Of a stretch of 64,000 bases of DNA, positions 12,595 to 12,905 are shown in pieces. The notes beneath the pieces were generated by a model, which was given only the letters and a program-made list of their open reading frames with translations, searched no databases and was not told the origin of the DNA. The translations under genes were made by a program, and so were the position numbers. Source of the DNA: the human T2T-CHM13v2.0 reference genome, Homo sapiens; the NCBI RefSeq assembly GCF_009914755.1, contig NC_060940.1; one strand, given 5' to 3'. Position 1 is the stretch's first letter, and each line of letters starts with the position of its first letter.

Positions 12595-12737
12595 CGGTTC
12601 TGCCCTTGTGGTCTGAGCCGGGGCCTGCCCTGGAGGCCGCTGTGGGGGAAGGGTGCCCCCCTGGAGCCTGGGTGTCCTCGAAGGCCCCCGCGGTCTGTGG
12701 AGCTGATCCCAGGGAAGTTGGTTCTTTTCGGCAGCAC
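12595..12737 (-). CDS. PABPN1L: PABPN1L exon 6 (acceptor is non-canonical in this sequence)
   Basis: VLPKRTNFPGISSTDRGG...QGQNR matches the PABPN1 [18 protein letters not shown] segment; donor CG|GTGAGT; preceded by TTGCTCCAC rather than CAG. Confidence 0.8.
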
Positions 12738-12905
12738 GTGGAGCAAAGGCCTGTTTTGAGTCCTCCTCAAGGAGCAGCCGAGACCCAGCTCACAGCCCCC
12801 GCAGCCCCCACCACCCCGGAGCATGGGGTCCTGCCCGGCTCAGGATACCATTCGGGCCTACAGGGTTCCCTGCCTTTGCCTACCATAGCTGTCATATGAC
12901 ACCCC

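What the first reader, a model, noticed from the sequence alone, without database searches (positions are those of the whole stretch)
12725..12755. PABPN1L exon 6 has no AG acceptor: intron 5 ends in CAC
Seen: homology with PABPN1 (RVIK|VLPKRTN) fixes the junction at 12737, but the minus strand reads ...GCCTTTGCTCCAC|GTGCTG. The intron is therefore GT...AC with a plain U2-type donor (GTGCGC), not a U12 donor. The nearest AGs (13 nt upstream; 14, 35 and 43 nt downstream) all shift the frame. Skipping the 143-nt exon joins exon 5 to exon 7 in another frame (GPWKILTMVF...PPLGGGMAQ*, stop at 11950), giving a 285-aa NMD-escaping protein that loses the RRM end, the Arg/Gly-rich tail and WFSPY. Known: PABPN1L is an oocyte poly(A)-binding factor for maternal mRNA clearance. 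Inference: this is a splice-disrupting allele, a lineage-fixed change that remodels the C-terminus, a rare working GT-AC intron, or a sequence error. I cannot tell which from one sequence.
Basis: partly seen in the sequence, partly recalled or inferred. Interest (0 to 1): 0.8.

Follow-up and report, generated by a model that had tools for sequence, protein, structure and literature searches.

The report
PABPN1L intron 5 lacks AG acceptor
In this human genome copy one base change has removed the normal splice signal in front of exon 6 of PABPN1L, a gene needed for female fertility in mice, so the textbook protein can only be made by rule-breaking splicing or with a seven-residue insertion.

Summary
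On the minus strand, PABPN1L intron 5 (13210..12738) starts GTGCGC and ends CTCCAC|GTGCTG. It is the only one of 26 annotated introns in the window without AG. No equivalent placement of the intron is canonical.

Homology fixes the junction. Xenopus ePABP2 residues 108|109 and the paralogue PABPN1 (AAG|gt...cag|GTG) split at the same K|V. Of 109 mammalian gene models containing PKRTN, 106 read IK|V.PKRTN directly.

Weak donor 13203 plus weak acceptor 12750 adds 21 nt (VRRPLLH). This product is exactly the NCBI-predicted human isoform X3.

Chimpanzee, gorilla and other primate models use the ancestral acceptor, so CAC is probably derived in humans.

I could not determine whether the allele is fixed, common or private to this assembly, or which junction oocytes use. 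No other human DNA, RNA data or relevant paper was reachable.

My reading is a real acceptor-destroying substitution, with the selected transcript carried over by alignment. I score interest as moderate.

The parts
13211..13298 (-). PABPN1L exon 5. It encodes the last 29 residues of the RRM (YAYIEF...RGRVIK) and ends in phase 0 after K218.
   Evidence: matches 2JWN residues 80-108 and 3B4D/3UCG. RRM_1 ends at K218.
13209..13210 (-). Annotated donor GT (AAG|GTGCGC). It matches 7 of 9 consensus positions and is not U12-type.
12738..13210 (-). Intron 5, 473 nt, GT...AC.
12738..12739 (-). Last two intron bases read AC, where the paralogue PABPN1 has AG. The C at 12738 (G on the + strand) is the changed base. 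It also makes the hexamer CACGTG and a CpG.
12595..12737 (-). Exon 6 (143 nt). It starts with VLPKRTNFPGISSTDRGG, conserved from Xenopus to mammals.
   Evidence: (2JWN 109-124).
13201..13202 (-). Alternative donor GT (CCG|GTGCTC; exon 5 would end at 13203, +8 nt). It matches 5 of 9 consensus positions.
   Evidence: The hub table lists exon 13203-13298 in other transcripts.
12751..12752 (-). Alternative acceptor AG (exon 6 would start at 12750, +13 nt). Pyrimidine fraction upstream is 0.29, lower than all 26 annotated acceptors.
   Evidence: The hub table lists exon 12595-12750 in other transcripts.
12757..12767 (-). The only branch-site-like motifs in the last 100 nt. CTCAA has its A at 12757 (19 nt to 12738, 6 nt to the AG at 12751). 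TTGAG has its A at 12767 (29 and 16 nt).
   Evidence: The consensus YTNAY is recalled, and neither motif matches it fully.
12114..12153 (-). Coding part of exon 7 in the conserved frame (ARGKFSPWFSPY, then stop).
11950..11952 (-). Stop codon reached by the +13, -14 and exon-skipped products. It lies in the last exon.

Best explanation
A real single-base substitution has destroyed the deeply conserved AG acceptor of PABPN1L intron 5 in this human haplotype. The coding strand changed from G to C at 12738, so CAG|GTG became CAC|GTG.

The selected RefSeq transcript still shows the ancestral K|V junction because known transcripts are laid on the assembly by alignment and conservation, not because CAC is a proven splice site (inferred).

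A U2-type spliceosome should use CAC poorly (established knowledge, not tested here). The allele is therefore expected to give mostly cryptic-site products:
- 13211>12750: +13 nt, frameshift, 337 aa.
- Exon-6 skipping: 285 aa, frameshift.
- 13211>12723: -14 nt, frameshift.
- 13203>12750: +21 nt, in frame.

The last is the only nearby GT-AG solution that keeps everything conserved. It inserts VRRPLLH between RVIK and VLPKRTN, directly after the RRM_1 core.

The change is derived on the human side. I judge it more likely than not that it is the usual human state, shared with the reference, and not private to this assembly. That judgement rests on base rates I recall, not on a test.
For: Sequence.

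This is the only non-AG acceptor among 26 annotated introns.

The junction is fixed by homology. 2JWN residues 80-108 match the end of exon 5 and 109-124 match the start of exon 6, with no gap. PABPN1 has its intron at the same K|V with gt...cag|GTG.

Of 109 held mammalian models with PKRTN, 106 have the direct junction.

The human predicted isoform X3 (P0001) is letter for letter the window's 13203>12750 product. On this assembly the prediction pipeline therefore avoided the GT-AC junction.

Models from chimpanzee (P0116), gorilla (P0128, P0004), orangutan, gibbons, green monkey and marmoset start exon 6 at the ancestral base.

The open reading frame is otherwise intact. The 60-residue tail has no residue unique to human among five primates compared.
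Against: I saw no RNA data, so poor use of CAC is expectation only.

The compensating pair is weak at both ends: donor 5 of 9, and acceptor pyrimidine fraction 0.29, below all 26 annotated sites. It may be only a computational model.

The inference that other primates have AG rests on gene models. It also rests on my recollection that NCBI's predictor uses consensus splice sites. I saw no primate DNA.

Shared-with-reference is untested. 0 matches for independent human DNA in genome contigs and viral contigs.

A curated, selected transcript with this junction may mean that curators had transcript support I cannot see.

Mouse knockouts are female-sterile (PMC10902638, passages). A fixed loss of the normal product in humans would therefore need a working substitute.
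Confidence: 0.5

Rival explanations
1. Same lesion and same consequences, but the allele is a segregating or rare variant carried by this assembly. The common human allele would be AG and make the 278-aa protein normally. This haplotype would then carry a loss-of-function-like allele of a candidate recessive female-infertility gene.
For: Transcript-to-genome placement hides intronic variants, so a splice-site SNP would look exactly like this. Shimada et al. 2010 (PMC2882926, passages) report GT-AC as the commonest non-canonical pattern predicted from SNP alleles at alternative-exon splice dinucleotides (3 transcript-SNP pairs). The intact ORF and unchanged tail fit a young allele. Essentiality in mouse (PMC10902638; bioRxiv 10.1101/2020.08.20.258830, passages) argues against fixation of a null.
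Against: By recalled base rates, selected transcripts with non-canonical introns in the reference outnumber splice-site differences between two haplotypes. That is not a test. The gnomAD survey in the preprint lists only intron-1 variants, and the authors looked only there.
Confidence: 0.35
2. The GT-AC intron is removed efficiently at CAC, so the 278-aa protein is the normal product despite the missing AG.
For: It is the selected curated transcript (hub table). The conserved frame is intact with no human-only change in the tail. The site keeps a CTCAA motif 19 nt upstream and a 13-nt mostly pyrimidine run. GT-AC junctions do occur in the catalogue of Parada et al. 2014 (supplement file 2, 5 'GTAC' entries).
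Against: The donor is not U12-type, and the U12-like TCCTTGAG lies too far from the 3' end. PABPN1L is absent from that catalogue's main text and from the searched supplement text; file 1 was not searched. From established splicing knowledge (recalled), an AG-to-AC change at a U2-type acceptor normally blocks the second step.
Confidence: 0.1
3. The C at 12738 (minus strand) is an assembly or consensus error.
For: None found. It cannot be excluded from one sequence.
Against: The base lies in non-repetitive, non-homopolymer sequence (CTCCACGTGC). It is outside the stretches the hub table lists as masked repeats. The predicted isoform X3 was built on the same bases.
Confidence: 0.02

Closest known systems
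Homologous intron of the paralogue PABPN1 (own genome, locus L005, chr14)
   Same: Same position and phase (…IK|VIPKRTN…), and a similar donor context (AAG|gt).
   Different: PABPN1 ends ...ctgactcag|GTG, a canonical AG. PABPN1L here ends ...ctccac|GTG.
Xenopus ePABP2 (PDB 2JWN) and mammalian PABPN1L orthologues
   Same: RRM plus VLPKRTN(M/F)PGISSTDR is contiguous across the junction. 106 of 109 models with PKRTN have the direct junction.
   Different: The only human model built with canonical sites carries a 7-residue insertion there (P0001).
SNPs at splice dinucleotides (Shimada et al. 2010, PMC2882926; passages seen)
   Same: An annotated junction whose genomic allele breaks the GT-AG rule. 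GT-AC is among the reported patterns.
Catalogued non-canonical human splice junctions (Parada et al. 2014, PMC4176328; passages and part of the supplement seen)
   Same: GT-AC junctions exist, some classed as U12-like.
   Different: PABPN1L is not listed in what I could search. Its donor has no U12 signature.
Mouse Pabpn1l intron-1 splice mutant (bioRxiv 10.1101/2020.08.20.258830; passages seen)
   Same: A splice-junction lesion in the same gene, proposed as a model of human splicing variants. Females are sterile.
   Different: The lesion is an engineered 41-bp deletion at intron 1/exon 2 causing intron retention. Intron 5 is not mentioned.

Membership tests
U2-type GT-AG intron | GT (or GC) at the 5' end | tested here: met
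   AAG|GTGCGC, 7 of 9 consensus positions.
U2-type GT-AG intron | AG at the 3' end | tested here: not met
   The intron ends CAC. All five equivalent placements are non-canonical.
U2-type GT-AG intron | Branch site and pyrimidine tract upstream of the 3' end | tested here: inconclusive
   There is no strict YTNAY. CTCAA lies 19 nt upstream. Pyrimidine fraction is 0.53, at the low end of the 26 annotated acceptors. The consensus is recalled.
U12-type intron (AT-AC or GT-AG class) | Donor RTATCCT | tested here: not met
   Absent from the donor region. The consensus is recalled.
U12-type intron (AT-AC or GT-AG class) | Branch sequence TCCTTRAY about 10-20 nt from the 3' end | tested here: not met
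   TCCTTGAG matches 7 of 8 at 12773, but its A is 29 nt from 12738.
Type II poly(A)-binding protein gene (PABPN1/ePABP2) | Single RRM followed by the conserved VLPKRTNxPGISSTDR and an Arg-rich tail ending PY | tested here: met
   RRM_1 matches 1-70 of 70. 2JWN, 3B4D and 3UCG match. P228, K229, R230, T231 and N232 are invariant in a 50-sequence alignment, and W281, P284 and Y285 are nearly invariant.
Unitary pseudogene / human-lineage gene loss | Disabling lesion with a decayed reading frame | tested here: inconclusive
   There is one splice lesion only. The 278-codon frame is intact, and no human-only residue occurs in the tail. The comparison has little power over this time span.
Unitary pseudogene / human-lineage gene loss | Lesion fixed in the species and no functional transcript | not testable with these tools
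   No other human genomes, population data or RNA-seq were reachable.
Splice-dinucleotide polymorphism | Both alleles segregate in the population | not testable with these tools
   Same limitation as the row above.

The most novel reading that the evidence does not exclude
Humans as a species have lost the acceptor that every other mammal examined uses in the oocyte mRNA-decay adaptor PABPN1L. Human eggs would then rely on one of two routes. One is a compensating pair of weak cryptic sites that inserts seven residues (VRRPLLH) right after the RRM. The other is genuine U2-type GT-AC splicing. Either way, a gene that is indispensable for female fertility in mice would have been remodelled specifically in humans.
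Probability: 0.3. Interest if true: 0.65.

Novelty: new member of a known kind. Interest (0 to 1): 0.42.

Why it matters
Pabpn1l knockout mice are female-sterile because maternal mRNA is not cleared (PMC10902638; bioRxiv 10.1101/2020.08.20.258830; passages seen). PABPN1L has also been proposed as a human infertility gene.

If the CAC allele is the usual human state, the reference protein used for variant interpretation may not be what human oocytes make. The real product needs to be measured.

If CAC is a segregating allele, it is a ready-made candidate loss-of-function variant for recessive female infertility. It sits in an intron base that exome pipelines score against a transcript already flagged as non-canonical.

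It is also a concrete case where a transcript placed by alignment on a new assembly hides a broken splice site.

Tried and rejected
- **Moving the intron boundaries.** Five equivalent placements exist and none is canonical.
- **U12-type intron.** There is no U12 donor, and the U12-like branch motif is too far from the 3' end.
- **In-frame AG with the annotated donor.** The only candidates are at +51, +93 and +120 nt. The nearest has a G-rich upstream tract with pyrimidine fraction 0.35, so I did not favour it.
- **Independent human DNA.** An exact 38-nt exon-6 pattern gave 0 matches in genome contigs and 0 in viral contigs. A peptide-pattern scan of genome contigs matched 600 stretches, but none encoded a relative of the query.
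- **Own-genome search.** It found only this locus, PABPN1 and PABPN1 pseudogene-like copies.
- **Literature.** Ten searches were run. None returned a paper on the human intron-5 acceptor, on human PABPN1L isoforms or on a human-chimpanzee difference. One search was badly framed and returned unrelated papers.
- **Papers not held.** Sakugawa et al. 2008 (human ePABP2 cDNA, PMC2582067) and Zhao et al. 2020 (PMC7403729) are not held. The first could bear directly on which junction human cDNA shows.
- **Structure prediction of the 285-aa isoform.** The tool was not accepting jobs. The effect of the insertion on the fold is untested.

Full report
**What is in the sequence**

PABPN1L lies on the minus strand. 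Exon 5 ends ...GTCATCAAG at 13211. The next bases are GTGCGCCGGTGCTCC... The intron ends ...AAAACAGGCCTTTGCTCCAC at 12738, and exon 6 starts GTGCTGCCGAAAAGAACC at 12737.

The seven annotated coding parts give an 837-nt frame of 278 codons with one terminal stop. Exon 6 starts in phase 0. The other five introns of the gene are GT-AG.

Across the six annotated genes of the window, all 26 introns have GT donors and 25 have AG acceptors. This is the single exception.

The intron start and the exon-6 start share GTGC. The intron can therefore be drawn in five ways without changing the mRNA. These read GT-AC, TG-CG, GC-GT, CG-TG and GC-GC, so no drawing is canonical.

**Is the junction really there?**

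Yes, by three lines of homology.

- The last 29 residues encoded by exon 5 match residues 80-108 of the solved Xenopus ePABP2 RRM (2JWN). The first 16 residues of exon 6 match residues 109-124 of the same chain. The two matches abut without a gap.
- The paralogue PABPN1 in the same genome has its intron at the same K|V position and phase. It reads AAG|gtaagc...ctgactcag|GTGATCCCAAAACGAACC.
- Among the 135 cluster representatives brought in by three protein searches, 109 contain PKRTN and 106 of these read IK|V(L/Q/C)PKRTN directly. The three exceptions are the human model P0001, a partial 'LOW QUALITY' sifaka model (P0021) and an unnamed fragment (P0061). The other 26 are alternative-frame or truncated models.

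These proteins are mostly computational gene models, with several isoforms per species. They are not independent observations.

With donor 13211, the AGs that would start exon 6 at 12750, 12723, 12702 and 12694 change the length by +13, -14, -35 and -43 nt. All of them shift the frame.

Skipping exon 6 gives 285 aa ending PPLGGGMAQ. The stop is at 11952-11950, inside the last exon. These statements are right.

Two points need correction.

*An in-frame canonical route exists.* A second GT lies 8 nt into the intron (CCG|GTGCTC; exon 5 would end at 13203). Paired with acceptor 12750 it adds 8 + 13 = 21 nt and keeps the frame. The junction then reads RVIK-VRRPLLH-VLPKRTN, in a 285-aa protein with the normal C-terminus.

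This is not my invention. The hub table lists exons 13203-13298 and 12595-12750 in other transcripts. The database protein named 'embryonic polyadenylate-binding protein 2 isoform X3 [Homo sapiens]' (P0001) is identical over all 285 residues to the window's 13203>12750 product.

*The core RRM is not lost.* The Pfam RRM_1 match covers profile positions 1-70 of 70 and ends at K218, the last codon of exon 5. Frame-shifted products therefore keep the core RRM. They lose the conserved post-RRM segment and the Arg/Gly tail ending SPWFSPY. Those positions are invariant or nearly invariant in a 50-sequence alignment.

**How good are the alternative sites?**

Both are poor. Donor 13203 matches 5 of 9 consensus positions. 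The annotated donors range from 4 to 8, and 13211 scores 7.

The 17 nt upstream of acceptor 12750 are 29% pyrimidine. That is below all 26 annotated acceptors, whose minimum is 47%.

The last 100 nt of the intron hold no strict YTNAY. There are two near-matches:
- CTCAA, with its A at 12757. This is 19 nt from the ancestral 3' end and only 6 nt from the upstream AG.
- TTGAG, with its A at 12767, at 29 and 16 nt.

The layout looks built for the ancestral site. I used crude consensus counts with recalled consensus sequences, not a trained splice-site model.

**Derived in humans?**

Exon-4-skipped models from chimpanzee (P0116), gorilla (P0128), green monkey (P0132), gibbon (P0133) and marmoset (P0135) read ...GHQG|AAEKNQL. 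This is exon 5 joined directly to GTGCTGCC in another frame, so they start exon 6 at the ancestral base. Standard-frame models from gorilla, orangutan, gibbons, monkeys, lemurs and other mammals do the same.

On this human assembly the same kind of pipeline avoided that junction and accepted a 7-residue insertion instead.

I recall that NCBI's predictor builds on consensus splice sites. If so, the other genomes have AG there and the C is derived on the human side. I saw no primate DNA, so this remains an inference.

The human frame shows no decay. The RRM span is identical to gorilla's. None of the 60 tail residues is unique to human among the five primates compared. The test has little power over a few million years.

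**What it most likely is**

I read it as a true acceptor-destroying substitution. The selected transcript is carried onto the assembly by alignment and conservation.

From established knowledge of U2-type splicing (recalled), AG to AC at the last intron base should block or greatly weaken the second step. The donor is not U12-type, and the U12-like TCCTTGAG is misplaced.

The expected products are a mixture of cryptic-site and skipped isoforms. Only 13203>12750 keeps every conserved element.

**What I could not settle**

I could not tell whether the allele is fixed, common or private to this assembly, or which junction human oocytes use.

No independent human DNA was reachable. The 38-nt pattern gave 0 matches in genome contigs and 0 in viral contigs. 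In one search, none of 600 matched stretches encoded a relative of the query.

Ten literature searches returned nothing on this intron. The one preprint on human PABPN1L splicing variants treats intron 1 only.

The non-canonical junction catalogue of Parada et al. does not list PABPN1L in its main text or in the supplement text that could be searched. One file was not searched.

The paper that cloned the human cDNA is not held.

My preference for 'usual human state' (about 0.5, against 0.35 for a segregating variant) rests only on recalled base rates of non-canonical introns in selected transcripts versus splice-site differences between two haplotypes.

Against fixation of a null stands the complete female sterility of knockout mice (PMC10902638; preprint). 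If the allele is fixed, something must substitute for the normal product.

**Verdict**

The kind of event, loss of a splice dinucleotide under an alignment-placed transcript, is well known (PMC2882926).

Interest is moderate. It would be high if the change is human-fixed and oocytes use the compensating pair or true GT-AC splicing. It would be low to moderate if it is a variant of this one assembly.

Noticed in passing
L004 (G000:C19:55893503-55896607), locus positions 722-1704: An intronless, frame-broken copy of PABPN1. The RRM, the contiguous ...[23 protein letters not shown]... and the RG/PY tail lie in three different frames, so it looks like a processed pseudogene. It preserves the spliced K|V junction of the paralogue. 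A similar hit with an internal TGA lies on C23 (L008).
   Followed up: partly
window 12734-12739 (minus strand): The changed base turns the acceptor hexamer into the palindromic E-box CACGTG and creates a CpG. The paralogue-type sequence would be CAGGTG. The site lies inside the RefSeq 'enhancer' 12118-12868 of the hub table. In mouse, the E-protein TCF3 drives the Pabpn1l promoter (PMC13748978, passages), but nothing links it to this intragenic site.
   Followed up: no
window 12766-12773 (minus strand): TCCTTGAG matches 7 of 8 positions of the U12 branch consensus (recalled). It sits 16 nt upstream of the AG at 12751. No U12-type donor accompanies it.
   Followed up: partly
window 11950-12750 (minus strand), alternative frame: The +1 frame through exons 6 and 7 stays open for about 120 codons. 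The same long alternative-frame tail (ending ...GMAQ/GMAH) appears in exon-4-skipped models of chimpanzee, gorilla and green monkey (P0116, P0128, P0132). This may simply reflect GC-rich sequence.
   Followed up: no
P0084 (Saimiri isoform X6) and P0021 (Propithecus, LOW QUALITY, partial): Other primate models also depart from the standard junction. Saimiri X6 reads RVIK|LHRPRG, which is the -35 AG. The sifaka partial model has four extra residues (FRFQ) at the same junction.
   Followed up: no
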